Shown here piece by piece: positions 36,750-63,732 of a stretch of DNA of 64,000 nucleotides (position 1 is the stretch's first letter; each line of letters begins with the position of its first letter). This stretch comes from Candidatus Omnitrophota bacterium. Its GTDB lineage: Bacteria > Omnitrophota > Gorgyraeia > Zapsychrales > Zapsychraceae. The position numbers and the translations under genes are program-made. The notes under the pieces were generated by a model. The model saw only the letters and a list, made by a program, of their open reading frames with translations. It did no database searches and was not told the DNA's origin. Location of the stretch: the NCBI GenBank assembly GCA_015233115.1, contig JADFYJ010000006.1:65801-129800 (forward strand), written 5' to 3'.

Positions 36750-38402
36750 ATGGCTAAACAATTAATTTATGATGATGAAGCAAGACGCGCGATATTGCGC
36801 GGCGTGGAACAATTGGCCCGCGCTGTCAAAGTGACATTAGGACCAAAAGGCCGTAATGTGGCGATTGACAAAAAATTCGGCTCACCGACTGTCACCAAAG
36901 ACGGTGTGACTGTAGCCAAAGAAGTTGAGTTAGATGACCCATTCGAAAATATGGGCGCGCAAATGGTCAAAGAAGTCGCTGAAAAAACTTCTGATATCGC
37001 TGGCGATGGTACTACCACAGCCACCATTTTGGCTGAAGCGATTTATAAGGAAGGTTTGAAAAACGTAACAGCCGGCGCTAATCCAATGGCTTTAAAACGC
37101 GGTATTGATAAAGCCGTGATTAAAGTGATTGAAAAAATTGGTAAATTAGCCAAGAAAATTGATGCCCGCAACACTAAAGAAGTTGAACAAGTGGCATGCA
37201 TCGCGGCTAACGGTGATGCTGAGATCGGTAAAAAAATTGCTGAAGCTTTCGACAAAGTAGGCAAAGATGCTCCAATTACGGTCGAAGAATCTAAAACCAT
37301 CCATACTGAATTAAAAGTGGTTGAAGGGATGCAATTCGATCAAGGATATCTTTCTCCGTATTTTTCAACAGATATGGAAAAGATGACTTGCTCAATGGAA
37401 GATCCTTTCATTTTGATCTACGAAAAAAAGATCTCCAATATTAAAGACATGCTTCCGCTTTTGGAAAAAGTCGCTAAAGCTGGCCGTTCTTTAGTCATTA
37501 TCGCTGAAGATGTGGAAGGTGAAGCATTAGCTACTTTAGTTGTGAACAATATGCGCAAAACCTTATCTTGCGTAGCTGTTAAAGCTCCGGGTTATGGCGA
37601 TCGTCGTAAGGCGATGTTGGAAGATATCGCTGTTTTGACCGGCGGCAAAGCTATTACGGAAGAATTAGGTATCAAGTTAGAAAATGTGAATGAAACTTAT
37701 TTAGGAAGCGCAAAAAAAGTGCAGGTTGATAAAGATAATACCACCATCGTAGAAGGTCACGGCGATCAAACCGCGATCAAAGGCCGTATTAAACAAATCA
37801 CCGCGCAGATTGACGCGACTGATTCTTCTTATGATAAAGAAAAATTAGTAGAGCGCAAAGCTAAATTAGCCGGTGGCGTGGCCATTATCAGTATCGGTGC
37901 TGCGACTGAAACCGAAATGAAAGAAAAGAAAGCCCGCGTAGAAGACGCGTTACATGCAACCCGCGCGGCCTTAGAAGAAGGTATTGTTCCTGGAGGCGGA
38001 GTGGCATTACTGCGCACCTTAGGTGTATTCGATACTTTGAAATTAGATGGCGACGAGAAAACCGGCGCGGAAATTGTTAAACGCGCGATAGAAGAACCGA
38101 TCCGCCAATTAGCCAAGAATGCTGGTGTCGAAGGTTCTGTGATTGTCGACAAATTAAAGAATGAAAAAGATAACATTGGTTATGACATGAACAAAGATGT
38201 TTACGGCGACATGATCGAATCCGGTATTATCGATCCGGCCAAGGTGACCCGTACTGCGTTACAAAACGCCGCATCTATCGCGTCATTATTGTTAACCACT
38301 GAAGCCTTAATTACTGACCTTCCTGAAAAAGATAAGGGCGGAATGCCGGGTGGAATGCCTCCGGGTATGGGCGGCATGGGTGGCATGGGCGGAATGATGT
38401 AA
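36750..38402 (+). CDS. groEL: Chaperonin GroEL.
   Basis: Full-length Cpn60 with a C-terminal GGM repeat tail ([10 protein letters not shown]). Confidence 0.97.
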
Positions 38403-38503
38403 AAAAAATGGTGTCTGCTCTCGACTAAAAAACATAAGACAGCGCTTTGCGCTGTCTTATGTTTTTTAAACAAGTGTTTAAAGTCGAGATCTGACACCAT
38501 TTT
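38403..38503. terminator. Compound terminator. Inner hairpin CATAAGACAGCGC-tttg-GCGCTGTCTTATG (38437-38466) with a T-run, nested inside the outer inverted repeat AAAAATGGTGTCTGCTCTCGAC / GTCGAGATCTGACACCATTTTTTT.
   Basis: Both pairings were read directly. The outer-arm motif GGTGTCTG.TCTCGA recurs at 39901-39926. Confidence 0.65.
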
Positions 38504-38504
38504 T

Positions 38505-39689
38505 TTGGAAGATAGACAAGCAACAAAAAACAAAATAACATCAACAATCGCTTCTAATCTATCTTCTCCCGTCTATTCTCTATCATCTGACAATTTAGCC
38601 ATTCCTCCAGATCTATTAAGCAAGGTCTGGATCGTTCCAGCCCACGCGAAAGTGTATGAAAACGGCTCAACTGCGTATGTGGTAGAGGCTAAATTGAAGG
38701 TCATGCTGGAAGATGAATATTTTAAAGAAAATAGAAAAGAGAAAATAGACGATAGACAAGCCACAAAAAACAAAACAACATCATCAGCCGCTTCTAATCT
38801 ATCTTCTCCCATCTATCGTCTATCATCTTTTACAAAACAAATTATCATTCCTGCCATAGAAAAAGAAGTCAATGAAGGCGCGCATTTTGCCCAGCTTCGG
38901 CAAATTTATAGCGCTATGGTTTTGGCTACCTGGTATAAACAAAGAATGAAAGAGTCTCTGCTCGGCCAAATCTTTGTTAATAAAAATAAAACCAAAGGGT
39001 TTGATACGAGCGACAAACAGATCACCCGAAAAATTTATGACCAGTATTTAGAATCTTTTAAAAAAGGTGTGGCGAATTATATTAAAGAAGAATATGACCC
39101 TCTTAAACAGGAAATGGTCAGCCGCAAATATTTTACCGGTGGAGAGGATTATGCTCAGTTGAATGAGACAACAGCAATTGTTCCTATAAGTCAAATCTCG
39201 GATCAGGATAAAGCGGTTTTAAGTCAAACGAATAACAGTTTGGTCGTAGTTTCTTTGCATGAACTGAATGTTAGTCTGAAAGGGGCGAATCAAGTTGTCA
39301 GAGAACAAGTTATTCATCCGGAAATGGTAGAAGAACTTTGGCGGCGAATTCAAGAAATTGATAGACGCTTATCTATTTCCAGAGCGGCTATGAATGGTGA
39401 AAAAGTAGCAATAACAAATATTTTTGAAGAATTATTGCGTATTATAAATTTTGATAAGAAAAATTTAACTACAGGAAAAGATCAAAAAAATCAATTAACA
39501 TTGCTAAAACGCGCTAAAATTGCGGCATTTTACGTAATTTTGAATGCCGGCTCAGATAAGATTCACCGTGTTGAAATCCGCACATTCATAAAATCCTTGA
39601 CTCTGGACCATCGGTGTTTTAAAGTTTCAAAAGTGTTATACATGGCGTATCCTTTCTGTTCTGGGCTGACATGGGTCAACCCTGGTTGA
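38505..39689 (+). CDS. Hypothetical protein carrying the same unassigned conserved domain as residues about 175-330 of the 2696-aa protein, plus an internal 82-bp in-frame duplication.
   Basis: Both proteins share LSKVWIVP, AKLKV, IPAIEK.VNEG, LRQIY, LATW, DKQ, KIY.QYL and FIKEEYDP...YFTGG. No ATG in frame near the 5' end (TTG at 38505), so the start is uncertain. Confidence 0.5.
   Translation: MEDRQATKNKITSTIASNLSSPVYSLSSDNLAIPPDLLSKVWIVPAHAKVYENGSTAYVVEAKLKVMLEDEYFKENRKEKIDDRQATKNKTTSSAASNLSSPIYRLSSFTKQIIIPAIEKEVNEGAHFAQLRQIYSAMVLATWYKQRMKESLLGQIFVNKNKTKGFDTSDKQITRKIYDQYLESFKKGVANYIKEEYDPLKQEMVSRKYFTGGEDYAQLNETTAIVPISQISDQDKAVLSQTNNSLVVVSLHELNVSLKGANQVVREQVIHPEMVEELWRRIQEIDRRLSISRAAMNGEKVAITNIFEELLRIINFDKKNLTTGKDQKNQLTLLKRAKIAAFYVILNAGSDKIHRVEIRTFIKSLTLDHRCFKVSKVLYMAYPFCSGLTWVNPG
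38507..38829 (+). repeat. Two 82-bp direct repeats (38507-38588 and 38748-38829, about 90% identical) inside the CDS. Each encodes DRQATKNK.TS..ASNLSSP.Y.LSS.
   Basis: GATAGACAAGC.ACAAAAAACAAAA.AACATCA.CA..CGCTTCTAATCTATCTTCTCCC.TCTAT..TCTATCATCT was read in both copies. Confidence 0.8.
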
Positions 39690-39946
39690 TATATCCAAAC
39701 AGAAAGATACGCCTTTTTAAAAATCTTGCAACTGGATCCCCGATTAAAGCGTTCGGGGATGACAAAGATCGAATTTACACACTTTATGGTATATCACCTT
39801 AAAAAATCAAAAGTTGACAATTGAAGGCAAAACTAATATAGTATATCTTTCCAAATAATATATATTTAGCCCTTAAAAGAGATAATAATCGCATAAACAT
39901 GGTGTCTGATCTCGATCTGACACCTTTTTTAAAATGGAGGATTTAC

Positions 39947-41107
39947 ATGGGTGAATGGATCGGGATAGACCGGCGGGCTCGTAGATGTTACGGTTTTGAT
40001 GAAATTTCGCTTGTGCCGGGCATGCAAACTATAAATCCCAATGAAGTGGATGTGACTCTTAAAATTGGTAATATGAAATTTGGCATCCCCATTATGGCTG
40101 CGGCCATGGATGGTGTGGTTGATGTGAACTTTTTGATTGCTATGGGTAAGTTAGGCGGTATTGCGGTGTTGAACTTAGACGGTGTTCAGACCCGCTATGA
40201 AGATCCCAGCCAGATTTTAAATGAAATCGCAGAAGCTTCGACTGAAAAAGCTACGGAACTTCTTCAAAAATTATATCAGCCCGCTATAAAAGAATCTTTG
40301 ATTTCAAAACGGATTGAGCAGATTAAAGCGGCGAATGTACCGGCTTTTATCAGCTGTATTCCTCAGCACGCGGAACGTTTTGGTAAAATATCTCAAGAAG
40401 CCGGGGCAGACTGCTTTGTGGTTCAATCCCAGGTATCTTCAGCCAAACATATTTCCACGGAATATAAAGTGTGTGATTACGGTGAGTTATGTTCGGGATT
40501 AAAAATTCCGGTTATGATTGGTAATGCTGTTACATACAAAATGACGTTATCTCTTTTGGAATTAGGCGCCAGCGGGGTTTTGATTGGTGTTGGTCCTGGA
40601 GCGGCATGTACGACCCGCGGGGTGTTGGGAATTGGTGTACCGCAGATTACAGCTACGATAGACGCGTCAGCAGCCCGCGATCATTATTATAAGAGGACCG
40701 GACGCTATGTTCCGATTATCACAGATGGCGGCATGCGTATAGGAGGAGAAATTTGTAAAGCTTTTGCTTCAGGTGCTGACGGGGTCATGGTCGGGTCGGC
40801 TTTTGCTAAAGCGAAAGAAGCTCCGGGCCATGGTAATCATTGGGGTATGGCTACGTCTCACGCGAATTTACCACGCGGTACACGGGTCAGGGTGGGAACG
40901 ACCGGAACTTTAGAGCAAATTCTTTTGGGACCAGCGAATGTGGATGATGGTTCACAAAATTTGGTCGGTGCTTTAAAAACGTCCATGGGATCTTTGGGTG
41001 CTAAAAATTTGAAAGAAATGCATGATGTGGAGATGATTATTGCTCCATCGATTCAGACCGAAGGAAAAGTGTTTCAGGTAGGCCAGCGGGTGGGGATGGG
41101 GAAATAG
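39947..41107 (+). CDS. IMP dehydrogenase/GMP reductase family protein without a CBS pair (GuaB-like).
   Basis: TIM-barrel IMPDH motifs (GVGPGAACTTRGVLGIGVPQ catalytic Cys loop; ITDGGMRIGGEI). SD GGAGG before the ATG at 39947; 39899-39946 lies in the hairpin repeat. Confidence 0.7.
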   Translation: MGEWIGIDRRARRCYGFDEISLVPGMQTINPNEVDVTLKIGNMKFGIPIMAAAMDGVVDVNFLIAMGKLGGIAVLNLDGVQTRYEDPSQILNEIAEASTEKATELLQKLYQPAIKESLISKRIEQIKAANVPAFISCIPQHAERFGKISQEAGADCFVVQSQVSSAKHISTEYKVCDYGELCSGLKIPVMIGNAVTYKMTLSLLELGASGVLIGVGPGAACTTRGVLGIGVPQITATIDASAARDHYYKRTGRYVPIITDGGMRIGGEICKAFASGADGVMVGSAFAKAKEAPGHGNHWGMATSHANLPRGTRVRVGTTGTLEQILLGPANVDDGSQNLVGALKTSMGSLGAKNLKEMHDVEMIIAPSIQTEGKVFQVGQRVGMGK

Positions 41108-54963: not shown

Positions 54964-57900
54964 ATGTTTAAGCGTGTCCTTAGTTTAATTTTAAGTATTA
55001 CTTTTATATTTTCCGCGTTTGCGCCCTATGCCAATGCGGTCGAACCGCTTTTTGCCGCACCCGCGGTCATGCCATTACTTGCACCGGCCAACATAGAAGT
55101 GCCTTTGCTGAAAGGATTGCGGATCGATCCGGCTTCTCCTTTAAAAATAGATTTCATTTTGGAGGCAGGGAAATCTGAACAAAATGCCAATTATTTAAAA
55201 ATTGAATCTAACCGTTTAATTAAATATTTCCTCGCCGGATTAACTGTCCCAGCTAATGAACTTTGGGTCAACTTAAATCCTAAAGAGCCAAACCGCATCA
55301 CGAGTGAAAAATTCGGCCAAACCGAAATGGGCCGCGACCTCTTAGCCCAGGATTACGTCCTCAAACAATTAAGCGCGAGTCTGCTAAACCCGGACAATGA
55401 AACCGGCCGAAAATTCTGGGATGGTGTGTATAAAAATGTTTCCTCTCCCCTCCGGGGAGAGGGCAGGGTGAGGGGTTTAGATATCCCCATTGGAATTTTA
55501 AGCAAAGTCTGGATCGTCCCAGGTGAAGCTGTAGTGGTCGAAAAAGAGAATGCGGCGTATGTCAAAAGCGCAAAATTAAAAGTGTTATTTGAGGGGGCGG
55601 AGAATACTCAATTAATCAAACAGTTAATTCTTCCCGCCATTGAAAAACAAGTCAACGAAGGCTCCGAATTCTCCCTGCTTCGTCAAATATATCATTCTTT
55701 GATTTTGGCAACATGGATGAAACGTAAAATTGGATTATTACAAAAAAATTATATTAACCAAAACAAAATCTCCGGCATCGACGTTGCCGACAAACAAGCC
55801 AAACAAAAAATTTACGCCCAATATCTCAAAGCCTTTACGGATGGCCTGCATAAATTTATTAAAGAAGAATACGACCCCCAAACCCGGCAGATCGTAGCCC
55901 GTCAATATTTCACCGGAGGAGCAGGATTTGAAAATTTAGACTCAGCCATGGTGGTCAACACTATGCAGGGACCTGTGGTTGCTCAATTTGAAAAACCGTA
56001 TGAAGTTGACGTAGATTTGAAACCGCAAAATTCTGTTGCCATTGATCAGGCCGCATTAGCCGGAACTTTAAAAATGGGGAAAGGGATAAAAGGGTTTTTA
56101 GACCGGGTTTTTGTTGCAGAGGAAGATAAGGAAAAAAAAGAGCGGACGCGCGTGTTAATTGAAAGTTTTTTAAACTCCGATTTTGAGCCAGCAGTCAAAA
56201 TGTTTGAAGAAATAAATCAATTAAGCAATGACAAAAAAATTATTTTAGCCCGCCAGTTATTGAAAACCGCGCCTGGCGCGTTAGCAGAAAATTTAACCTT
56301 AGAGCAATTTTTAATGTTAAAACCGAATGATAATAATGCGTCTTTCTTTCATATTTTTGGACGCTTTATTCTGGCCTTTCATTCTGAGTACAAAGCTGAA
56401 TACCTGAAAATGTATCAAGGTAATCCTTTAGTTTTAAATAATGATATCACCCGTTGGAAAACAGTTTACGCGCTTCTTTGGGCGGCGGAAATTTTAGGCT
56501 CAGACCAAGCCCTGCTGGCGCGTCAAAATATGGACGATATATCGCGCGATTTAATCAATAAACATCAAGCCTTAAGTGACGATGAAATAGCAGCTTTTGA
56601 AAAGGAACTGCCGAATTTTAATTGGCGAATGGCAACTGATGTGCCTTGGGAAGAAGTCATCAGGTCGCCTTCACTACAACCATATGGCCCTACGGATGAT
56701 GAACAATCAGTGCGGCGGTGGGGTTCAATTTATAATCAACAAAATTATTGGAATAATAATGTTGTGGTCCGCAGATATTTTTTGTTTTTAGTCAGAGATA
56801 TGATTCTTAATCCGGAATTTTTTACCCATGATTACGTTCAGCGGATATCGCAGATGCATTCGGCCCTGCGAAGAGCACGCGGTCTTTATGCCTCTGATTC
56901 AGGGCATGATGATGGTTTGCAAACAGGAATTTTAAATTCAACGTCAGAACAAAATAAAAAATTATTCTTAAGCTTAAAAGAATTATTGCAAGAACATAAT
57001 GGCGTTAACAAAAATCTATCTAAAGAAATATCTCAAATTGCAGGATATTATTTGGCTCTTTTACAAGGCTATCTATTCGGTCCTGGACGGGGTAACAACT
57101 CGCTTTACATGAATATGGTGAATGCTCTGATACGGCTCAATAGCTTAAATGGGATAAGTCACGAAAACCTTGATATGGTAATTGCCCTTGTGCATAACAA
57201 ACCAGAAAAATTTCTTTATCCGCGTTTCTTGTCCGAGCTTAAAAAAAGAAATCCGGAAAATAAAGCAGCCCAAAATTTATCCATCAAAGATATTCTGCCT
57301 GAATCAGATCAAGCGATGGTGCGGGATTCTAGAGATCAAGAACGCCTGGCAAAAAGAAAAAATTTATTCAGGACTTTTGATCTGGAAGGCATGCCTCCTG
57401 AAGAAATGCCGCCAGAATTGTTTGAAAACATTAAAGAGCCTTTAACCGCCAAGCAAAAAGAAAACTTAAAGAAGCAATTAGCCGATCATTTCATGATTTG
57501 GGGCTTAGAATCATTTCTTACCATGGAACACCAGGATGAAAGAGTCCTGCAATTTGCGCAAAAACAAGGCTTTAAAATAAATAAAGCATTTTTAGAGCAA
57601 GTTATTAGGGAAATGTTCGCTGAAAAAGAAAAATATTTTACGGCCAAAGTGGTAGAGATCGGAACATCCAACGCAATAAATACAGATCGTGCCTCTTTAG
57701 CCACCACAACTTCAAACGATATTAATCAAGACGACTCATGGGCAGAGAGGTTCGCTTCTTATAGGCATAAAAGAATTATTGTAGCTGATGATCACGCGGA
57801 TTTTCGTCAGGATATGCAGGGAATTTTGTCTAGATATTTTAACAAAGTGACTATAGCTTCATCCATCAACGAAGTAATGGAAGAGTACGCGGCGATGAAA

Positions 57901-60900
57901 GCGGATCAGGTGGCTGATGATGATATTTTAATTTTGATAGATTTTCAGTTTGCAGAGGGACACAATGCGTTTGAATTGGTCAATCAACTGCGCGTTGAAC
58001 GGAATTTTACCGGTAAAATCGGCATTGTTTCCGGCAGTATGGTGTCAGAACTTAATATTCCGGGGTACGATCCTGTTCATCAGGATTTGAATAATGAGGT
58101 CAAGATACGTTATGGTTTGGATTATATTCAGAAACAGCCTGCCGGATTTAAAGATAATTTGTTTGGTTTAATGGATAGGCAATTTAAACAAAAGCCTTAC
58201 CAAAAGCCAGAGGGTTTGGAGCCGTTGGTTGTAGACCATGAACTACATGGAGTTCATGGCCGTGAACCCAGCGTGGTTCACGGTTCTAATTTGGGGTATT
58301 TTTTAAGCGGCATCAATGATAGGGAAATGCATATTGGGGAAGAGTTAGAGAAATCTCTTAATGAAGTGTCTTTGGGGCAGTCTTTAAATACTGGCGCAGT
58401 GCAAAGTTTAATTGAAGAAATCAAAACAGGTATTAAATTTTCGAATGTGCGTCAAGGATTTAATGGATCAGTTGATTCCTATGCTTTTCGTCAAAGTCTC
58501 CACGATCATAAAAATAATATCGCAAGGCTAGGCAGTAAAATTGAAGACCTTCAAGGGCAAATAACAGCTGAGTCGAATGCTGCTCTGGATTCAGTATTAT
58601 CCCGTATTCATGATATGGTAAACGTGTATTTTAATTATACGGATTGGGTCTACCGCATGTTGATTTATTGCGGCCGCCTTGAGTATATTGAGATGATGGA
58701 GCCGCTGCTGCAGTCTGCCATTGTGTCTTACCAAAAAGAATTCGAACGTCGTCATTCCAATCAATTCGATCCTGACGAAGGGATTGCTCAGGCTCTTAAT
58801 CATTTGAAAAACACCAGCGCGGAATTCCGTGGTCAGCACATCGAACCTGCCATGAAATCGTGGGGGATATTATTTAAGGAATATCAGGCTGTCGAAGAAG
58901 GCATGAATAAAATTTTGGGCGATAAAATGAGTTCAAACCAAAACGCGTTTTTAAAATCATTTTCTGACAAATTAAATTTATTTTTCGGCCAATATCTCGT
59001 TACATTCGGAGCCAATGATTTGAATGGCGATTTGCCAGGTAAAGCACTAGGCAGGGTCGTGGTTTTAAGCGGCGATTCATGGGAGGCCGAACAATTTTTT
59101 AAAGATAAGGTTCAGGAAAGCGATATTGTGGTTGTTCGTCAGGATTATTCATGGATTACAGCGGCACGCAGTAAAGCCTCTGCCATTATTTTTGCTCAAT
59201 CCGGCGGTCAGCATATTATCACTCAAGCTCGGATATCAGGAATTCCATTGATATTTTTGCCCAACGCGGATGAGTTTTTTGAGGCAGTTAGGAAAGAGTA
59301 CGAAAGACAGGGAAAGAACAAAGATATTTTTGTAAGAGTAGAAGTTGAAGATGGAAAAGGACGGATTATTCCGGTCAATGAAGTAGGAGAAAAAGTAAAC
59401 CCAATTGACTCTTTACAGGAAATTCAAAAAGTAGAGGTTGATAAGGTCGATGGTTACTCTGGCCCGGATATCATCAGTTCAGAGAGTCCTCTTGATGATT
59501 ACGCGGATACCATGGAAGAATTGCGACCCTGGATGGGAACTAAAGCGCTAAATCAATACATCGTAAAAAAAGACAAAATTTCCGACGTACCGCAGTTTTT
59601 GATGCAAACCTTCCGATTAATGGAACGGTGTTTTAAATTTTCCGACAAATATTATGAAATATTAGATAAGATCCGCGGTTTTTCCGACACATCTTCAAGA
59701 CATGAAGTGGAAACAGTTTTAAAGGAAATGCAAGATTATATTTTCTCTCAGTCGCTCAATGAATTGGATGAAATGTTTTATAAGGCCAGAGCCATTGAAT
59801 GGATTTTTGAAAATCCCTTGGCTATTCGTCTGATTACTAATGATCAGGATTTGGAAAAATATCCCGGTGTGGGCGCGGGGACGTATCTATCACTCGAAAA
59901 TATCCGGGTGAAAAATGTGCAAGAATTAAAGCCCTATTTAAAAGAAGTTTACGCGTCTATGTGGAGTTATGAAGCGTATAAACAGCGGCTGGACCGCGGC
60001 ATCCCTCAGGATGCGGTTTACGGCGCGATTGAAATTCAAGAATATAAATCTGACGCGATATATTCTATGCACATTGAGACGCAAGTTGAAGGCAATCCGG
60101 ATATTTTAAAAATTATGTTTATGCCCGGAGCTGCCCGGTCTATTTCTGCCAAAGATCCACAGTATGGTGGAGAACCGTTTATTTTTTATTTTGATAAAAA
60201 AGCGCAAAATGGAAAAGGCGGATTGATTGGCTGGAGCGATCCCCGAACGCAATATCATCCGGTTAAGGCAGAAAAGGCATATTACGCGTCTTTCGAAAAT
60301 AAAGATCCTCAAAGTTTTAATATTAACAATTATCCTGAACTCAGGATCATGTTTAAATCAAAAAATATGAATGTCAGGCCTTTTATCAACCAATTTGAAG
60401 ATGCTGCCCGCAAGGCGATGAAAATGGAAAAACGTTTTCAATCTCCGCGTGAAATAGAGGCTACTTTAGACTTAACTGGATTTTCTGCCCATCAATGCCG
60501 GAGAATGAAAGTCGTGGGGCCTATTGATATTTCAGCTATTCCTGCAAATGCAGAACAAGATGTGGAATTTTTGGAAAGGGTGATTAGCGAATTAAAGCAA
60601 CGCTCTCCGGAAATCGGTGAATTTATTGAAAAACATGGGGTAAAAGAATTTGATCCGCGAATTGTTTCTGGCGAAGAACTGGAAGAGGTATTACAGGGCT
60701 TACGCATTTTAGATCGATCAAATACTTTAAAAACCCCTTGGGTTTTTTCAATGCTTTTAATTACGGCTGCAGGTGGATCGGAAAGAAAGTTTGATCAGGA
60801 TGCGACGAGAATACTTAAGCTTTTACAAAATAAAGAGTTTGATAGTGTGCGTGGCTCGCTAATGTTTTTGATGGCCTATTTTGTTTTTGGCGGGCATGAA

Positions 60901-63054
60901 TTTATTTGGGATTGGTTGGAATATTTGTCAAACAATGAACCTGAATTGTTTAAACATTTAGCTCCCTATTTTATTTTAAGCGACAGAATAATCAATGCTA
61001 GCCATGCTTGCCGGGATTTAATGCTGTTTCGTTTGTTATCTCCTGAATTTTATGACCGAAGAGAAATTCAAAAAAAGCCACTAAGAGAAAAATTTATTCA
61101 GGCTTTGTCCGTAGATGATATCAGCCATCTTTTAAATAATGCTTTGAAATTTCAACAATCTACTGGAAGTGATTTTAAGGATAAGTATCTCCTGGATTTG
61201 CTAAAAACCCATCCTGATTTTACAGCTATTACCCAATTGGAGAATTTTAAGAAATTATATCCAGAGGAATCAACAGTATCTGTTAAAGAACCGTCGTTGC
61301 CCAAAGATGTCGTTCTTCTCAAAAATGTACTTGAAGAAATTAAAGTAAAGTCTCCGGCTATAAAAAATTTTATTGAACGTTATTCTGGACGGAAGTTCAG
61401 CATGGACGACGTATCTTTTCAAGAGATTAAAAAGATTACTGTTGAAGTGTTCGATCTCACCCAAAGCATTGAAGATCCCAAGATGCAAAGTATTGATGGA
61501 ACATTTTTAATATATTTAATTCATAAATTTGGCAGTGAATTAGGAGATTTTGAAAAGACAAGTGAAGATATTTGTATAGCGCTTCAGCACAAAGATTTTG
61601 ATAATGTCCGCGCTCCCGTGTTGTTTTTAATTTCTTTTTTTGGTTTTAATGGACATGCGTATATGTTTCGGTTTTTGGATAGGTTAGTTGACCGGCGGCC
61701 AGAATTATTTAAAGAATTGATTCCATATTTTATCCTCTCAGATAATTTGATCCAGGGAGTTTATAATGCTCACGGCTCTTTTGGGTTGGAAATTGAAAAT
61801 CTTATGTCTGATCGCATGATCAATGATGCTTGGGGGACAAATCAGGGGAAGAACATTCAGCAGACCTTTATAAATGAATTAACTCTAGAACAGATTGAAA
61901 AATTTCTCGGAAACGCTGTTACCATCAGAGAAACGCATACCAACTATGATACCCAGCGTTTGTTGCTATTGCTTCAAAACCGAAATGATTTCAAGCAGAT
62001 TACAGTGTTGAATAATTTTAAACAACTTTACCCGGATTATAAAGAGCCGGGACCAGATGTCATGACGGATCAAAATAATTCTGGTCTCTCGTCTGAAAAA
62101 ATTGCTTGGCTGCATAAATTAATTGATAATATGAAAAACATGGATTCGGACGACTTTTTAAAAGATTTCTTGGAGAGGCACGCGGGTGGTTCTTTTGATT
62201 TAAAAAATATTTCTCCGGACGATTTTGAGTTAATACGTTTTTGGTTTTGGAACGTGCTTAAGAATTTTAAAAATCAACATGTTGAGGTTGACATGCCTAC
62301 CATGTTTTTAGCATTCGCGATTTATATTTCAGGAGAGAGGCTGGATGATTATAAAAAGGTTTGGACGGATATTCTTCAAACATTGCAAAGCCCTGAGTTT
62401 GACGATGTCCGGGGACCGATAATGTTTTTAATGTCATTTTTTGTTGAAGGCGGACACGAATTTATCTTAGAATGGCTGGATGACCTTTCTGTTCAAAATC
62501 CGGATTTGTTTAAAAAAATAGTGCCATATTTTATCGTGCCGAATGAGATTGTTTATCTCATGCAGGAGCAAAGCACTGGATTTTGGAAGCATAAAGATTT
62601 TATACTTTATCGGCTTTTGTTTGAAAAAGACGCGGAAAGAAGATGGGGAAATCTGCAAAAAAGGTTTATCGCGGATTTAAGCGTTGAAGATGTGAGGAAA
62701 TTGATGGACAATGTGGAAGTTTTTGGAAAACTGGATGAAAAAAATTATAAAGTCACTTTGCTTCACCTGATAGAGCCGCACCAGGAATTTTTAACTATAA
62801 AAGGAACAACAGAATTTAAAAAACTCTATCCGTATTCAGATCAAGCGCAGTTGGCCGATGAAAAAAATAAAGGCGGTATTGACTTAAACACCGAAACCAT
62901 GAATGTGAAAGTCGAATCTGATTCCGCAGTAATTGCTGATCAGGGAAAATTCGATCAGGCCCTTTTAGCCTCTATCCAAAGCATGACAGGTTTTGAACCC
63001 GTCATCGTTTCCATCCGGCCATTAACCAACGTTAACGCGTTTTTTGGCATATGA
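54964..63054 (+). CDS. Giant (2696 aa) secreted or anchored multidomain protein. In order: signal peptide, an unassigned domain shared with the 38505 protein, a receiver-like domain, a PEP-utilizer swivel-His-like segment, a degenerate PPDK_N-like ATP-grasp-like segment, and three C-terminal tandem repeats of about 240 aa.
   Basis: Uninterrupted 8091-nt ORF. MFKRVLSLILSITFIFSAFAPYANA signal. REC-like RIIVADDHADFR...ILILIDFQFAEGHNAFELVNQLR...KIGIVSG (about aa 934-1035). SGGQHIITQARISGIPLIF (aa about 1410-1430). KEVYASMWSYEAYKQRLDRGI...AIEIQEY...YSMHIET (aa about 1640-1720). Repeats at about aa 1870-2105, 2112-2360 and 2375-2630. Confidence 0.7.
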   Translation: MFKRVLSLILSITFIFSAFAPYANAVEPLFAAPAVMPLLAPANIEVPLLKGLRIDPASPLKIDFILEAGKSEQNANYLKIESNRLIKYFLAGLTVPANELWVNLNPKEPNRITSEKFGQTEMGRDLLAQDYVLKQLSASLLNPDNETGRKFWDGVYKNVSSPLRGEGRVRGLDIPIGILSKVWIVPGEAVVVEKENAAYVKSAKLKVLFEGAENTQLIKQLILPAIEKQVNEGSEFSLLRQIYHSLILATWMKRKIGLLQKNYINQNKISGIDVADKQAKQKIYAQYLKAFTDGLHKFIKEEYDPQTRQIVARQYFTGGAGFENLDSAMVVNTMQGPVVAQFEKPYEVDVDLKPQNSVAIDQAALAGTLKMGKGIKGFLDRVFVAEEDKEKKERTRVLIESFLNSDFEPAVKMFEEINQLSNDKKIILARQLLKTAPGALAENLTLEQFLMLKPNDNNASFFHIFGRFILAFHSEYKAEYLKMYQGNPLVLNNDITRWKTVYALLWAAEILGSDQALLARQNMDDISRDLINKHQALSDDEIAAFEKELPNFNWRMATDVPWEEVIRSPSLQPYGPTDDEQSVRRWGSIYNQQNYWNNNVVVRRYFLFLVRDMILNPEFFTHDYVQRISQMHSALRRARGLYASDSGHDDGLQTGILNSTSEQNKKLFLSLKELLQEHNGVNKNLSKEISQIAGYYLALLQGYLFGPGRGNNSLYMNMVNALIRLNSLNGISHENLDMVIALVHNKPEKFLYPRFLSELKKRNPENKAAQNLSIKDILPESDQAMVRDSRDQERLAKRKNLFRTFDLEGMPPEEMPPELFENIKEPLTAKQKENLKKQLADHFMIWGLESFLTMEHQDERVLQFAQKQGFKINKAFLEQVIREMFAEKEKYFTAKVVEIGTSNAINTDRASLATTTSNDINQDDSWAERFASYRHKRIIVADDHADFRQDMQGILSRYFNKVTIASSINEVMEEYAAMKADQVADDDILILIDFQFAEGHNAFELVNQLRVERNFTGKIGIVSGSMVSELNIPGYDPVHQDLNNEVKIRYGLDYIQKQPAGFKDNLFGLMDRQFKQKPYQKPEGLEPLVVDHELHGVHGREPSVVHGSNLGYFLSGINDREMHIGEELEKSLNEVSLGQSLNTGAVQSLIEEIKTGIKFSNVRQGFNGSVDSYAFRQSLHDHKNNIARLGSKIEDLQGQITAESNAALDSVLSRIHDMVNVYFNYTDWVYRMLIYCGRLEYIEMMEPLLQSAIVSYQKEFERRHSNQFDPDEGIAQALNHLKNTSAEFRGQHIEPAMKSWGILFKEYQAVEEGMNKILGDKMSSNQNAFLKSFSDKLNLFFGQYLVTFGANDLNGDLPGKALGRVVVLSGDSWEAEQFFKDKVQESDIVVVRQDYSWITAARSKASAIIFAQSGGQHIITQARISGIPLIFLPNADEFFEAVRKEYERQGKNKDIFVRVEVEDGKGRIIPVNEVGEKVNPIDSLQEIQKVEVDKVDGYSGPDIISSESPLDDYADTMEELRPWMGTKALNQYIVKKDKISDVPQFLMQTFRLMERCFKFSDKYYEILDKIRGFSDTSSRHEVETVLKEMQDYIFSQSLNELDEMFYKARAIEWIFENPLAIRLITNDQDLEKYPGVGAGTYLSLENIRVKNVQELKPYLKEVYASMWSYEAYKQRLDRGIPQDAVYGAIEIQEYKSDAIYSMHIETQVEGNPDILKIMFMPGAARSISAKDPQYGGEPFIFYFDKKAQNGKGGLIGWSDPRTQYHPVKAEKAYYASFENKDPQSFNINNYPELRIMFKSKNMNVRPFINQFEDAARKAMKMEKRFQSPREIEATLDLTGFSAHQCRRMKVVGPIDISAIPANAEQDVEFLERVISELKQRSPEIGEFIEKHGVKEFDPRIVSGEELEEVLQGLRILDRSNTLKTPWVFSMLLITAAGGSERKFDQDATRILKLLQNKEFDSVRGSLMFLMAYFVFGGHEFIWDWLEYLSNNEPELFKHLAPYFILSDRIINASHACRDLMLFRLLSPEFYDRREIQKKPLREKFIQALSVDDISHLLNNALKFQQSTGSDFKDKYLLDLLKTHPDFTAITQLENFKKLYPEESTVSVKEPSLPKDVVLLKNVLEEIKVKSPAIKNFIERYSGRKFSMDDVSFQEIKKITVEVFDLTQSIEDPKMQSIDGTFLIYLIHKFGSELGDFEKTSEDICIALQHKDFDNVRAPVLFLISFFGFNGHAYMFRFLDRLVDRRPELFKELIPYFILSDNLIQGVYNAHGSFGLEIENLMSDRMINDAWGTNQGKNIQQTFINELTLEQIEKFLGNAVTIRETHTNYDTQRLLLLLQNRNDFKQITVLNNFKQLYPDYKEPGPDVMTDQNNSGLSSEKIAWLHKLIDNMKNMDSDDFLKDFLERHAGGSFDLKNISPDDFELIRFWFWNVLKNFKNQHVEVDMPTMFLAFAIYISGERLDDYKKVWTDILQTLQSPEFDDVRGPIMFLMSFFVEGGHEFILEWLDDLSVQNPDLFKKIVPYFIVPNEIVYLMQEQSTGFWKHKDFILYRLLFEKDAERRWGNLQKRFIADLSVEDVRKLMDNVEVFGKLDEKNYKVTLLHLIEPHQEFLTIKGTTEFKKLYPYSDQAQLADEKNKGGIDLNTETMNVKVESDSAVIADQGKFDQALLASIQSMTGFEPVIVSIRPLTNVNAFFGI

Positions 63055-63132: not shown

Positions 63133-63732
63133 TTGAAAGTTAAAGAATTCATGAAAGACAAAAATATTTATATCATCGCGGGACCCAATGGGGCAGGGAA
63201 AACAACTTTCGCGGTAAAGTTTTTGCCTGATTATGTGAAGTGCCCTAATTTTGTAAACGCGGATCTTATCGCGCTGGGATTGGCTCCGTTTTCTCCCAAT
63301 ACGGCGGCTATTAAGGCAGGGAAATTGGTTCTTCAGCAAATTGATAATTTTGCTAATCAGGGAGTCGAATTTGCTTTTGAGACGACGTTGTCCGGTAAAA
63401 CTTATCTGAGATTATTGAAGGAGTTGAAATTAAAAGGATATAAATTACATCTATTTTTTTTGTGGGTTCCGGATAAACGGCTAGCTTTGGCACGAATCAA
63501 AGATCGAGTCGCAGAAGGCGGGCATAATATCCCGGCTAATGACGCGCGCAGAAGATTTGTCCGAAGTATTTATAATTTTTTATCGGTTTATCGACCCATT
63601 TTTGATTCTTGGATGTTGTTTGATAATTCGGGTACTGCTCCCCGATTAATTGCAGAAGAAAAAGACGGTAAACTTTATGTTGCTGACAAAAAAATGTTTG
63701 ATATAATCACTCGTTCGGTGGAGGCAATTTAA
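63133..63732 (+). CDS. Zeta-toxin-family P-loop kinase-like protein (AAA/zeta toxin domain).
   Basis: IYIIAGPNGAGKTTF Walker A, FVNADLIA, FETTLSGK, and LHLFFLWVP...RIKDRVAEGGHNIP, consistent with the zeta toxin / UNAG kinase family. Confidence 0.65.
   Translation: MKVKEFMKDKNIYIIAGPNGAGKTTFAVKFLPDYVKCPNFVNADLIALGLAPFSPNTAAIKAGKLVLQQIDNFANQGVEFAFETTLSGKTYLRLLKELKLKGYKLHLFFLWVPDKRLALARIKDRVAEGGHNIPANDARRRFVRSIYNFLSVYRPIFDSWMLFDNSGTAPRLIAEEKDGKLYVADKKMFDIITRSVEAI

What the first reader, a model, noticed from the sequence alone, without database searches (positions are those of the whole stretch)
38505..39689. Stand-alone paralog of the giant protein's N-terminal domain, itself carrying an 82-bp in-frame internal duplication
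The 394-aa protein shares a conserved domain of about 160 aa with residues about 175-330 of the 2696-aa protein. Shared motifs are LSKVWIVP, AKLKV, IPAIEK.VNEG, LRQIY, LATW, DKQ..KIY.QYL and FIKEEYDP...YFTGG. The relationship is unmistakable by eye, yet I cannot assign the domain to a known family. Inside the paralog's copy of the domain, about 33 aa are inserted between AKLKV and IPAIEK. Their DNA (38748-38829) is a roughly 90% identical duplicate of the ORF's own 5' end (38507-38588), in frame. This is a recent segmental duplication inside a coding sequence. The ORF has no in-frame ATG near its 5' end.
Basis: seen in the sequence. Interest (0 to 1): 0.75.

Follow-up and report, generated by a model that had tools for sequence, protein, structure and literature searches.

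The report
Truncated gene relic with hairpin repeat
This ORF is most likely a beheaded, probably dead copy of a very large, unnamed family of secreted Omnitrophota proteins, and its 81-bp repeat is a second, partial copy of the gene's own hairpin-forming linker sitting at the break point.

Summary
The observations hold. ORF 38505-39689 is homologous to the N-terminus of the 2696-aa protein (BLASTP E=1e-45). It carries an in-frame 81-nt direct repeat (38508-38588 and 38748-38828, 89% identical). Its first in-frame ATG is codon 67.

The interpretation needs correcting:
- Both proteins belong to a huge Omnitrophota family (8404 clusters at 50% identity). The roughly 330-aa domain always follows a signal peptide at the extreme N-terminus. 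It has no Pfam, NCBIfam or PDB match.
- The ORF keeps only the second half of that domain. It lacks the signal peptide, the first half and the family's C-terminal GGIDLN module. It abuts the groEL terminator.
- The "33-aa insertion" is the family's normal variable linker (median 47, ORF 52). The giant protein has an unusually short one (19). So the 5' copy is the secondary copy.
- That linker is a hairpin-forming element. Its arms are 79-96% identical in DNA to two distant relatives, against about 60% for the flanking domain.
- The closest relatives have no gene between groEL and guaB3. Two others have full-length family members there.

Best reading: a truncated relic, probably non-functional (0.55). 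A working stand-alone half-domain protein is not excluded.

The parts
36750..38402 (+). groEL. It lies directly upstream, and its stop codon TAA 38400-38402 is in the same frame as the ORF.
   Evidence: Pfam Cpn60_TCP1, E=8.7e-79. Sequence read.
38402..38506 (.). Compound palindrome that fills the whole groEL-ORF spacer. The outer stem is AAAAAAATGGTGTC...GACACCATTTTTTT. It encloses the groEL intrinsic terminator hairpin at 38426-38468 (20-bp perfect arms, A-run and T-run). It ends on the ORF's TTG.
   Evidence: the repeat finder I1 and I2. RNA fold -57.5 kcal/mol, z=-12. Rfam gives only spurious miRNA-hairpin hits.
38505..39689 (+). The 394-aa ORF: a truncated member of the Omnitrophota N-domain family.
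38508..38588 (+). Repeat copy 1 (A1). This is the secondary, partial copy of the linker element. It sits at the truncation junction, in the position of the loop between the two halves of the domain. It has no homology to the family at this position.
   Evidence: (tblastn homology starts only at 38601). Coding score about 0 bits per codon.
38589..39143 (+). Second half of the family N-domain: IP..LSKVWIVP beta-hairpin, LKVMLE, linker, IPAIEKEVNEG...LRQIY...LATWYK...KIYDQYL...YIKEEYDP...YFTGG.
   Evidence: hmmsearch with the family profile, positions 179-478, E=2e-90. It keeps 58 of 71 columns that are at least 80% conserved. AF2 pLDDT 85-96 over most of residues 41-211. Codon score 0.39-0.46, typical of genes.
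38724..38831 (+). Hairpin-forming linker element. The purine-rich 5' arm is GAAAATAGAAAAGAGAAAATAGACGATAGAC. The pyrimidine-rich 3' arm is GTCTATCGTCTATCATCTTTT. It is translated as the variable linker.
   Evidence: the repeat finder I3. Fold -18.6 kcal/mol, z=-7. The arms are 79-96% nt-identical to the linkers of P0027 and P0075, while the flanking domain DNA is 57-64% identical. Linker z-scores are -4 to -9 in this sub-clade only.
38748..38828 (+). Repeat copy 2 (A2): the native copy, inside the family's normal variable linker.
39144..39686 (+). Orphan C-terminal region. It has no homolog and lacks the family's C-terminal GGIDLN module. The last 60 codons have sub-genic coding potential.
   Evidence: Codon score 0.086 for the last 60 codons, against a minimum of 0.137 in known genes. 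pLDDT below 50 for residues 242-270 and 367-394.
39644..39718 (+). Terminator-like hairpin plus U-run. It overlaps the last 15 codons and the stop codon of the ORF.
   Evidence: Fold -31.1 kcal/mol, z=-5.4.
39814..39842 (+). Promoter-like site of guaB3 (TTGACA-17-TATAGT). A similar site is visible in several relatives' groEL-guaB3 spacers.
   Evidence: Spacer sequences of L004, L009, L010, L013 and L016.
39894..39930 (.). Second copy of the GGTGTCWGATC...GACACC palindrome plus a T-run, in the guaB3 leader. The true guaB3 start is probably ATG 39947.
54964..63054 (+). Full-length family member, the 'giant' protein. It has a signal peptide, the N-domain (54964-55920, with an unusually short linker), about 2300 aa of cargo, and the C-terminal GGIDLN module (62872-63051).

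Best explanation
ORF 38505-39689 is a truncated relic of a member of a very large Omnitrophota-specific family of secreted or surface proteins.

A full-length member has four parts: a signal peptide, a two-part N-domain of about 330 aa, a hypervariable cargo, and a C-terminal module of about 60 aa (GGIDLN...PVIINITP).

This copy has lost the signal peptide and the first half of the N-domain. It has also lost, or never had, the C-terminal module. It begins on the T-run of the groEL terminator palindrome. I could find no convincing promoter, Shine-Dalgarno site or ATG. So it most likely makes no functional secreted product. This last step is inferred, not shown.

The 81-bp repeat is not an insertion into the domain. 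Copy 2 is the gene's native linker. That linker is a hairpin-forming inverted-repeat element whose DNA is conserved in a small sub-clade of the family. Copy 1 is a second copy that lacks most of the 5' arm. It lies where the first half of the domain was cut away.

Two histories fit, and I cannot separate them:
- The element was first duplicated or inserted in frame into the permissive loop between the two halves. A later deletion then removed everything upstream, ending inside that copy.
- Copy 1 was copied in during the rearrangement itself, by template switching at the hairpin.

Shown: the architecture, the truncation, the polarity of the repeat, the hairpin and its DNA-level conservation. 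Inferred: non-functionality and the order of events.
For: - The family is defined by 500+ hits, almost all from Omnitrophota, and by 8404 representatives in a profile search, with the domain always at residues 1 to about 400.
- The ORF matches only profile positions 179-478. No first-half fragment exists anywhere else in the window.
- Linker lengths: median 47, ORF 52, giant 19.
- P0027 and P0075 share the linker at protein and DNA level.
- The C-terminal module is present in the giant protein and in 79 of 256 fetched members, but not in the ORF.
- The ORF abuts a -57.5 kcal/mol palindrome-terminator. It has no Shine-Dalgarno site and a TTG start. No promoter-like site lies upstream. Both ends have sub-genic codon scores.
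- Eight of the closest relatives I examined (GuaB3 78-84% identical) have only a 137-455-nt spacer between groEL and guaB3. L021 and L037 have full-length family members in that slot.
- Other family members are visibly disrupted at the same inter-half loop: an IS110 insertion in L003 and frameshifts in L001, L002 and L087.
- The protein has been seen in only one contig in public data.
Against: - The ORF is open for 394 codons.
- Its core has normal codon usage.
- It keeps 82% of the highly conserved residues, and the replacements are mostly conservative. That is more than the intact giant protein keeps (75%).
- If the repeat copies diverged in situ under neutrality, the chance of no stop codon arising is about 0.03, or 0.19 at the low end of the confidence interval. 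This argument lapses if the two copies are separate insertions of an already diverged element.
- A terminator-like hairpin follows the ORF.
- About half of the bona fide genes in the window also lack a Shine-Dalgarno site.
- The ORF is only 35-38% identical to the L021 and L037 proteins. So an ancestral full-length gene in this slot is not demonstrated.
Confidence: 0.55

Rival explanations
1. The ORF is a functional, cytoplasmic, stand-alone half-domain protein. It would be translated from TTG 38505 or from an internal start such as ATG 38703. It might act as a partner, regulator or chaperone of the full-length family members.
For: - The reading frame is intact.
- The core has gene-like codon usage.
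- Conserved residues are retained.
- P(no stop | neutral) is about 0.03.
- AF2 folds the second half confidently on its own: beta-hairpin, helices, beta-hairpin.
- The ORF has its own terminator-like hairpin.
Against: - In all 150 best profile hits the domain starts at the protein's N-terminus.
- The other members I examined that begin inside the domain all turned out to be broken genes.
- I found no promoter, Shine-Dalgarno site or ATG.
- The start codon is buried in a terminator palindrome.
- The C-terminal 170 aa is an orphan.
- The protein is seen only once in 5.8 billion clusters.
Confidence: 0.25
2. The A1-B-A2 arrangement, or the groEL-to-A1 junction, is an assembly artefact: a chimeric or mis-joined contig of a metagenome-assembled genome.
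For: - The genome is a MAG, and the protein is seen on one contig only.
- The junction lies at a long palindrome.
- No independent assembly was found.
Against: - The two copies differ at 9 positions. By inspection of the two printed copies, their longest shared exact run is 22 nt, too short to mislead assemblers at their final k. An assembler cannot invent a diverged copy.
- The synteny groES-groEL...guaB3-guaA across the junction is the conserved Omnitrophota order.
- The guaB3 promoter-like site is in its usual place.
Confidence: 0.05
3. The 81-bp unit belongs to a small mobile palindromic element, like a MITE, a REP or a Rickettsia palindromic element. On this view it inserts in frame into permissive loops of these genes. 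Copy 1 and copy 2 would then be two independent insertions, and the truncation an unrelated later deletion.
For: - The element has inverted-repeat ends and a stable hairpin.
- Its arms are 79-96% nt-identical in genes of three different organisms whose flanking domain DNA is only about 60% identical.
- In core sequence the ORF is closer to P0004 and P0020 (65-68% aa), which lack the element, than to P0075 and P0027 (55-58%), which carry it.
- The giant protein and P0043 carry other palindromic inserts, translated in frame, in the same inter-half loop where copy 1 lies.
Against: - There are only two copies in 64 kb, both in this ORF.
- There are no copies outside family linkers in 87 fetched loci.
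- The shared 22-mer has no match in JGI metagenome contigs.
- No target-site duplication is visible.
- The evidence rests on only three or four genes.
Confidence: 0.3

Closest known systems
Truncated or pseudogenised paralogs of large, fast-evolving families of secreted or surface proteins in bacteria (general knowledge, not tested against a named family)
   Same: The copy is 5'-truncated and has no recognisable promoter. It lacks the export signal. It sits in a variable slot between conserved housekeeping genes. Other members of the same family are visibly broken by IS elements and frameshifts.
   Different: There is no stop or frameshift in 394 codons, and the conserved residues are well kept. 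Decay, if any, is young, or the fragment is still used.
Polymorphic effector or toxin architectures with a conserved N-terminal trafficking domain and variable C-terminal cargo, such as LXG, Rhs, CdiA and MafB (own knowledge; an analogy for the family, not for this ORF)
   Same: The conserved module is always at the extreme N-terminus. The cargo is hypervariable, from about 100 to over 5000 aa, and includes kinase, receiver, ankyrin and methyltransferase-like parts. There are many paralogs per genome.
   Different: There is no sequence or fold similarity to any of these. The family also has a conserved C-terminal module. No immunity gene or secretion-system linkage was examined.
Rickettsia palindromic elements (RPEs) and other REP- or MITE-like repeats inserted in frame into protein-coding genes
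   Same: A short hairpin-forming DNA element is translated in frame within a surface loop or linker of a protein. Its nucleotide sequence is better conserved than the host gene's.
   Different: Dispersed multi-copy distribution was not shown. There are only two copies in the window, and three or four host genes are known, all at the same linker site.
N-terminal regions of Omnitrophota giant proteins ('Archaeovorins'), West-Roberts et al., bioRxiv 10.1101/2023.11.21.568195
   Same: Same phylum, with long proteins carrying a signal peptide. The paper states that the N-terminal regions 'generally lack identifiable domains'.
   Different: The family here spans 420 to over 5000 aa, and most members are far from giant. 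I did not test whether Archaeovorins carry this N-domain.

Membership tests
Omnitrophota N-domain family (unnamed; defined here from alignments A1-A3 and the profile search) | N-terminal signal peptide or hydrophobic helix | tested here: not met
   It is present in the giant protein (MFKRVLSLILSITFIFSAFAPYANA) and in the complete members among the 15 aligned sequences. The ORF begins LEDRQATKNK, with no hydrophobic segment.
Omnitrophota N-domain family (unnamed; defined here from alignments A1-A3 and the profile search) | First half of the domain (NPLxFDF...KLIKYFLAxLTVPE...WVNLSPYEKDRII...TEMGRDLLAQDY.LKQLTASLMYPE...FW..VY) | tested here: not met
   The ORF aligns only from profile position 179. 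tblastn homology starts at 38601. There is no first-half fragment elsewhere in the window.
Omnitrophota N-domain family (unnamed; defined here from alignments A1-A3 and the profile search) | Second half of the domain (KVWIVP...LKVMLE, linker, PEIEKEVNEG..LRQIY..ATWYK...KIY.QYL...YFSGG) | tested here: met
   hmmsearch E=2e-90. All 14 invariant columns and 58 of 71 columns that are at least 80% conserved are kept.
Omnitrophota N-domain family (unnamed; defined here from alignments A1-A3 and the profile search) | C-terminal module GGIDLN...G(F)xPVIINITPVxNLPLLLG | tested here: not met
   Found in the giant protein (62872-63051), in the L021 and L037 proteins, and in 79 of 256 fetched members, many of which are cut by contig ends. 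It is absent from the ORF in all frames.
Pseudogene or gene remnant | Truncated relative to intact homologs | tested here: met
   About 180 N-terminal residues and the C-terminal module are missing.
Pseudogene or gene remnant | Loss of expression signals (promoter, RBS, start codon) | tested here: inconclusive
   The ORF has a TTG start only, no Shine-Dalgarno site, no promoter-like site upstream, and a start codon inside a terminator palindrome. But about half of the real genes here also lack a Shine-Dalgarno site, and the scans are consensus matches only.
Pseudogene or gene remnant | Internal stops, frameshifts or relaxed constraint | tested here: not met
   There is no stop in 394 codons. 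The core codon score is normal. Conserved residues are 82% kept. dN/dS could not be computed because no close ortholog exists.
Diversity-generating retroelement (template repeat and variable repeat pair) | Mismatches confined to adenines of one copy | tested here: not met
   The 9 differences are A>C, A>C, T>C, A>T, A>G, T>C, G>A, T>C and C>G, read from copy 1 to copy 2. Only 4 of 9 fall on A in copy 1, and only 1 of 9 on A in copy 2.
Diversity-generating retroelement (template repeat and variable repeat pair) | Reverse transcriptase gene nearby | not tested
   Only 16 neighbouring ORFs were scanned with Pfam, and all the hits are housekeeping domains. The whole window was not scanned.
MITE, REP or RPE-like palindromic mobile element | Terminal inverted repeats or a stable hairpin | tested here: met
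   20-nt arms, 85% complementary. Fold z=-7. Sub-clade linkers have z of -4 to -9, against about 0 in other members.
MITE, REP or RPE-like palindromic mobile element | Many dispersed copies in the genome | tested here: not met
   There are two copies in 64 kb, both in this ORF. There are none outside family linkers in the fetched loci. The rest of the genome could not be searched.
Silent cassette for gene conversion (pilS, vls or msp2 type) | Near-identical conserved flanks shared with an expressed full-length locus | tested here: not met
   The only other family member in the window is 37% identical in protein. No protein above 55% identity exists in public data, including the same MAG.

The most novel reading that the evidence does not exclude
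The hairpin-forming linker element is a functional nucleic-acid site inside the coding sequence, not just a tolerated peptide spacer. It could be a recombination or break-and-join site, or a mobile in-frame palindromic element, that drives modular rearrangement, truncation and shuffling of this large Omnitrophota family. On this reading the ORF's A1-B-A2 structure is a caught-in-the-act product of that process. The support is as follows. The arms are conserved at 79-96% nt identity across organisms whose flanking domain DNA is about 60% identical. Base pairing is kept through changes on both sides at 5 of 12 pairs in the four-sequence consensus structure. The same inter-half loop and linker are the sites of palindromic inserts, IS insertion and frameshifts in other members.
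Probability: 0.12. Interest if true: 0.6.

Novelty: new member of a known kind. Interest (0 to 1): 0.33.

Why it matters
The ORF itself is an ordinary object: a truncated copy of a multigene family. Its annotation as an intact 'hypothetical protein' is probably misleading.

Checking it brought up two things of wider use:
- **An unannotated family.** The N-terminal domain shared with the 2696-aa protein defines a very large, Omnitrophota-restricted family. It has at least 8404 clusters at 50% identity. It has no Pfam or NCBIfam model and no detectable solved fold. The module is always N-terminal, it is paired with a conserved C-terminal module, and the cargo between them is hypervariable. A Pfam-style model of both modules would annotate thousands of proteins in a phylum thought to live as predators or parasites.
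- **Translated hairpin DNA.** The loops of this domain carry hairpin-forming DNA that is translated in frame. One such element is conserved in DNA well beyond the host gene. This resembles the palindromic elements of Rickettsia and may explain why members break at these points.

Tried and rejected
- **DGR template/variable repeat pair:** rejected, because the mismatches are not adenine-specific.
- **Known RNA family in the spacer or repeat:** Rfam gives only sub-threshold miRNA-hairpin matches to the terminator palindrome.
- **Known protein family or fold:**
  - Pfam and NCBIfam give nothing.
  - A PDB profile search gives only Huntingtin at E=0.022.
  - The afdb50 library was unavailable.
- **The two halves of the N-domain as an ancient internal duplication:** hhalign probability 0.9%.
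- **Homologs of the ORF's C-terminal 169 aa:**
  - None in the large database. That search did not even return the ORF's own entry, so it is a weak negative.
  - None among 256 family members, and none in any frame.
- **An independent assembly of the repeat:** the 22-mer shared by both copies has no match in JGI metagenome contigs.
- **Silent-cassette (gene conversion donor) idea:** no sufficiently similar expression locus exists.
- **GroEL stop-codon readthrough fusion:** the ORF is in frame with groEL, but a strong terminator lies between them, and an in-frame arrangement has a 1-in-3 chance anyway.
- **Exact look-up of the window's GroEL in the contig index:** not on record.
Full report
**1. 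Observation**

The window comes from a Candidatus Omnitrophica MAG. The 394-aa ORF is identical to NCBI entry HQL26_04835, which has been seen on a single contig.

The ORF runs from 38505 to 39689 on the + strand and starts with TTG. BLASTP against the 2696-aa protein (54964-63054) gives E=1e-45 at 37% identity. ORF residues 7-268 align with giant residues 147-362.

The repeat finder reports an 81-nt direct repeat, 38508-38588 against 38748-38828. It is 89% identical with a spacing of 240 nt, so it is in frame. blastn gives E=1e-21, and there are no further copies in the 64 kb. The first in-frame ATG is codon 67.

**2. What the domain is**

Neither protein has a Pfam or NCBIfam match in this region. 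The ORF finds more than 500 homologs, and nearly all of the named ones are from Omnitrophota.

A profile of 105 members was run against 1.84 billion cluster representatives. It finds 8404 proteins at E of 0.001 or better, and 6832 at 1e-30 or better. In all 150 listed hits the domain starts at the protein's N-terminus, in proteins of 420 to 5312 aa.

The alignments show this architecture:
- a signal peptide;
- a first half: NPLxFDF, KLIKYFLAxLTVPE, WVNLSPYEKDRII, TEMGRDLLAQDY.LKQLTASLMYPE, FW..VY;
- a loop;
- a second half: IP.NTFNKVWIVP ... LKVMLEEDY, then a variable linker, then REIxIPEIEKEVNEG..LRQIY..ILATWYK ... KIY.QYLEAFKKGVYNYIKEDYDP...RKYFSGG;
- variable cargo;
- in many members, a C-terminal module: GGIDLNP..LDLQIKRDGNGVPLP...IEGFxPVIINITPVTNLPLLLG.

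The C-terminal module is found in 79 of 256 fetched proteins and in the giant protein at 62872-63051.

**3. What the ORF is**

- *Only the second half is present.* The family profile matches the ORF from position 179 onward. tblastn with full-length members starts at 38601. No first-half fragment exists anywhere else in the window.
- *It lacks the signal peptide and the C-terminal module.* Its last 169 residues have no homolog among 256 family members or in any reading frame. The large-database search for them was negative too, but it failed to return even the ORF's own entry.
- *The 5' end abuts a terminator.* The reading frame is open back to the groEL stop codon (from the sequence). The 105 nt between them form a compound palindrome (-57.5 kcal/mol, z=-12). 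Its inner hairpin is the groEL terminator, and its outer T-run contains the TTG.
- *No expression signals were found.* There is no Shine-Dalgarno site and no promoter-like site upstream. About half of the real genes here also lack a Shine-Dalgarno site, so this is weak evidence.
- *Codon usage.* It is gene-like in the core (0.39-0.46 bits per codon, against a mean of 0.38 for known genes). It falls to or below the minimum of known genes in the first and last 60 codons. The last 15 codons lie inside a terminator-like hairpin.
- *Signs of preservation.* There is no stop in 394 codons. 58 of 71 highly conserved positions are kept, more than in the intact giant protein.

**4. Polarity of the repeat**

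I measured the distance from LKVMLE to PEIEKEVN in 66 family members. The median is 47 and the range is 19-88. The ORF has 52. The giant protein has 19, the shortest of all. So the '33-aa insertion' is the normal linker, and it is the giant protein that is short.

Relatives P0027, P0075, P0102 and P0052 have recognisably similar linkers, of the form E[ND]RKEKIE...SSP.[YH].[PL]SS. Copy 2 is therefore native.

Copy 1 replaces the family sequence that normally precedes IP..KVWIVP, and it has no homology to it.

The 9 differences between the copies fall in 7 codons, and 6 of those codons change the amino acid. They are not adenine-specific, so this is not a DGR.

**5. The linker is a hairpin element**

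The copy-2 region folds into a long-range hairpin (z=-7). The linkers of P0075, P0027 and P0102 do the same (z of -4.6 to -9.3). The linkers of seven other family genes do not (z of about 0 to -2).

The two arms are 24/25 and 29/33 identical to P0075, and 33/37 and 26/33 identical to P0027. The flanking conserved-domain DNA is only 57-64% identical.

In a four-sequence consensus fold, 5 of 12 pairs keep pairing through changes on both sides. With only four sequences this is weak evidence.

In its core, the ORF is closer to P0004 and P0020, which lack the element, than to the members that carry it.

Copy 1 contains the loop, the 3' arm and only the last 13 nt or so of the 5' arm. So the truncation breakpoint lies inside, or at the edge of, a copy of this element.

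The loop where copy 1 sits is the same loop in which the giant protein carries an in-frame palindrome (55441-55476, SSPLRGEGRVRG) and P0043 carries SLDPRFRGNDK. The disruptions in other members lie close to it: an IS110 insertion at profile position about 141-144 in L003, and frameshifts at about 141-146 in L001/L002 and about 164-172 in L087.

**6. Synteny**

Using GuaB3 as a probe, I fetched 80 Omnitrophota loci. The order groES-groEL-guaB3-guaA is widely conserved.
- Eight of the closest relatives that I examined (GuaB3 78-84% identical) have only 137-455 nt between groEL and guaB3. That spacer holds a terminator, and several of them show a TTGACA...TATATT promoter-like site. A similar promoter-like site is present in the window at 39814-39842.
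- L021 and L037 have full-length family members in the same slot, of 1286 and 1025 aa, each with a signal peptide, the N-domain and the GGIDLN module.
- Other loci have family members just upstream of groES or just downstream of guaA.

This neighbourhood repeatedly hosts family members. However, the ORF is only 35-38% identical to the L021 and L037 proteins, so orthology is not shown.

A palindrome, GAGATCWGACACCAT, flanks the ORF segment on both sides, at 38403-38505 and 39894-39930. It occurs nowhere else in the window, and it is not seen in the eight close relatives' spacers I examined. I cannot explain this.

**7. Verdict**

The most likely reading is a truncated relic of a full-length family gene (confidence 0.55). 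Its repeat marks a second, partial copy of the gene's own hairpin linker element at the break.

A functional stand-alone half-domain protein remains possible (0.25). The main argument for it is the intact frame. If the copies diverged in situ under neutrality, the probability of no stop codon arising is about 0.03. That argument fails if the two copies came from already diverged element copies.

An assembly artefact is unlikely (0.05). The copies differ at 9 sites, and their longest shared exact run, read from the two copies, is 22 nt. Only read mapping can settle it.

The rival about the origin of the repeat (a mobile in-frame palindromic element, 0.3) is compatible with either view of function.

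The finding itself is ordinary. The unannotated family and the translated hairpin elements are the more interesting by-products.

Noticed in passing
window 55441-55476 (giant protein residues 160-171): An in-frame palindromic insert, TCCTCTCCCCTCCGGGGAGAGGGCAGGGTGAGGGG, is translated as SSPLRGEGRVRG. It lies in the loop between the two halves of the N-domain. Paralog P0043 of the same MAG has SLDPRFRGNDK at the same loop. There is a single copy in the window.
   Followed up: partly
window 62872-63051; also L021, L037 and 79 of 256 fetched family proteins: A conserved C-terminal module of about 60-100 aa, GGIDLNPxxLDLQIKRDGNGVPLP...IEGFxPVIINITPVTNLPLLLG, pairs with the N-terminal domain in full-length members. 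It has no Pfam or NCBIfam match.
   Followed up: partly
window 38403-38505 and 39894-39930: Copies of the palindrome GAGATCWGACACCAT(T-run) bracket the ORF-containing segment. The left copy is split around the groEL terminator. The right copy lies in the guaB3 leader. It is absent from the rest of the 64 kb and from the eight close relatives' spacers examined. Its origin and role are unexplained.
   Followed up: partly
window 39899-39949: The mechanical guaB3 ORF start (ATG 39899) is probably wrong. Relatives align from residue 16 or 17 onward, and ATG 39947 has a GGAGG Shine-Dalgarno site 8 nt upstream. The first 16 codons are the palindrome plus T-run of the leader.
   Followed up: partly
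L003 1120-2637; L001 1704-3718; L002 2481-4503; L087 1540-3904: Other family members are disrupted near the same inter-half loop (profile positions about 141-172). L003 has an IS110-family transposase inserted. L001 and L002 (two independent samples) and L087 have frameshifts. This suggests either frequent pseudogenisation or a fragile site.
   Followed up: partly
window 54964-63054: The 2696-aa protein has no significant Pfam domain at all. It contains three internal repeats of about 250 aa, near residues 1959, 2212 and 2479 (FDxVRGxxMFLMxFF..GGHEF...PELFK..PYFI). It also has a weak receiver-like match at residues 917-1019.
   Followed up: no
window 63133-63732: An ORF with a zeta-toxin-like kinase domain (Pfam PF06414, E=3e-10) lies directly downstream of the giant gene.
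   Followed up: no
L084 (P0075), L085 (P0027), L086 (P0102): linker DNA: The linkers of this sub-clade are encoded by strong inverted repeats. In P0102 the stem is about 20 bp and the fold is -58 kcal/mol (z=-9.3). The peptide is then purine-codon-rich (E/D/R/K/G) on one side and S/P/L-rich on the other.
   Followed up: partly
(tool behaviour): The word-indexed homolog search with the ORF's C-terminal 169 aa did not return the ORF's own database entry, P0001. Negative results from that tool for short or atypical queries are therefore not reliable.
   Followed up: yes
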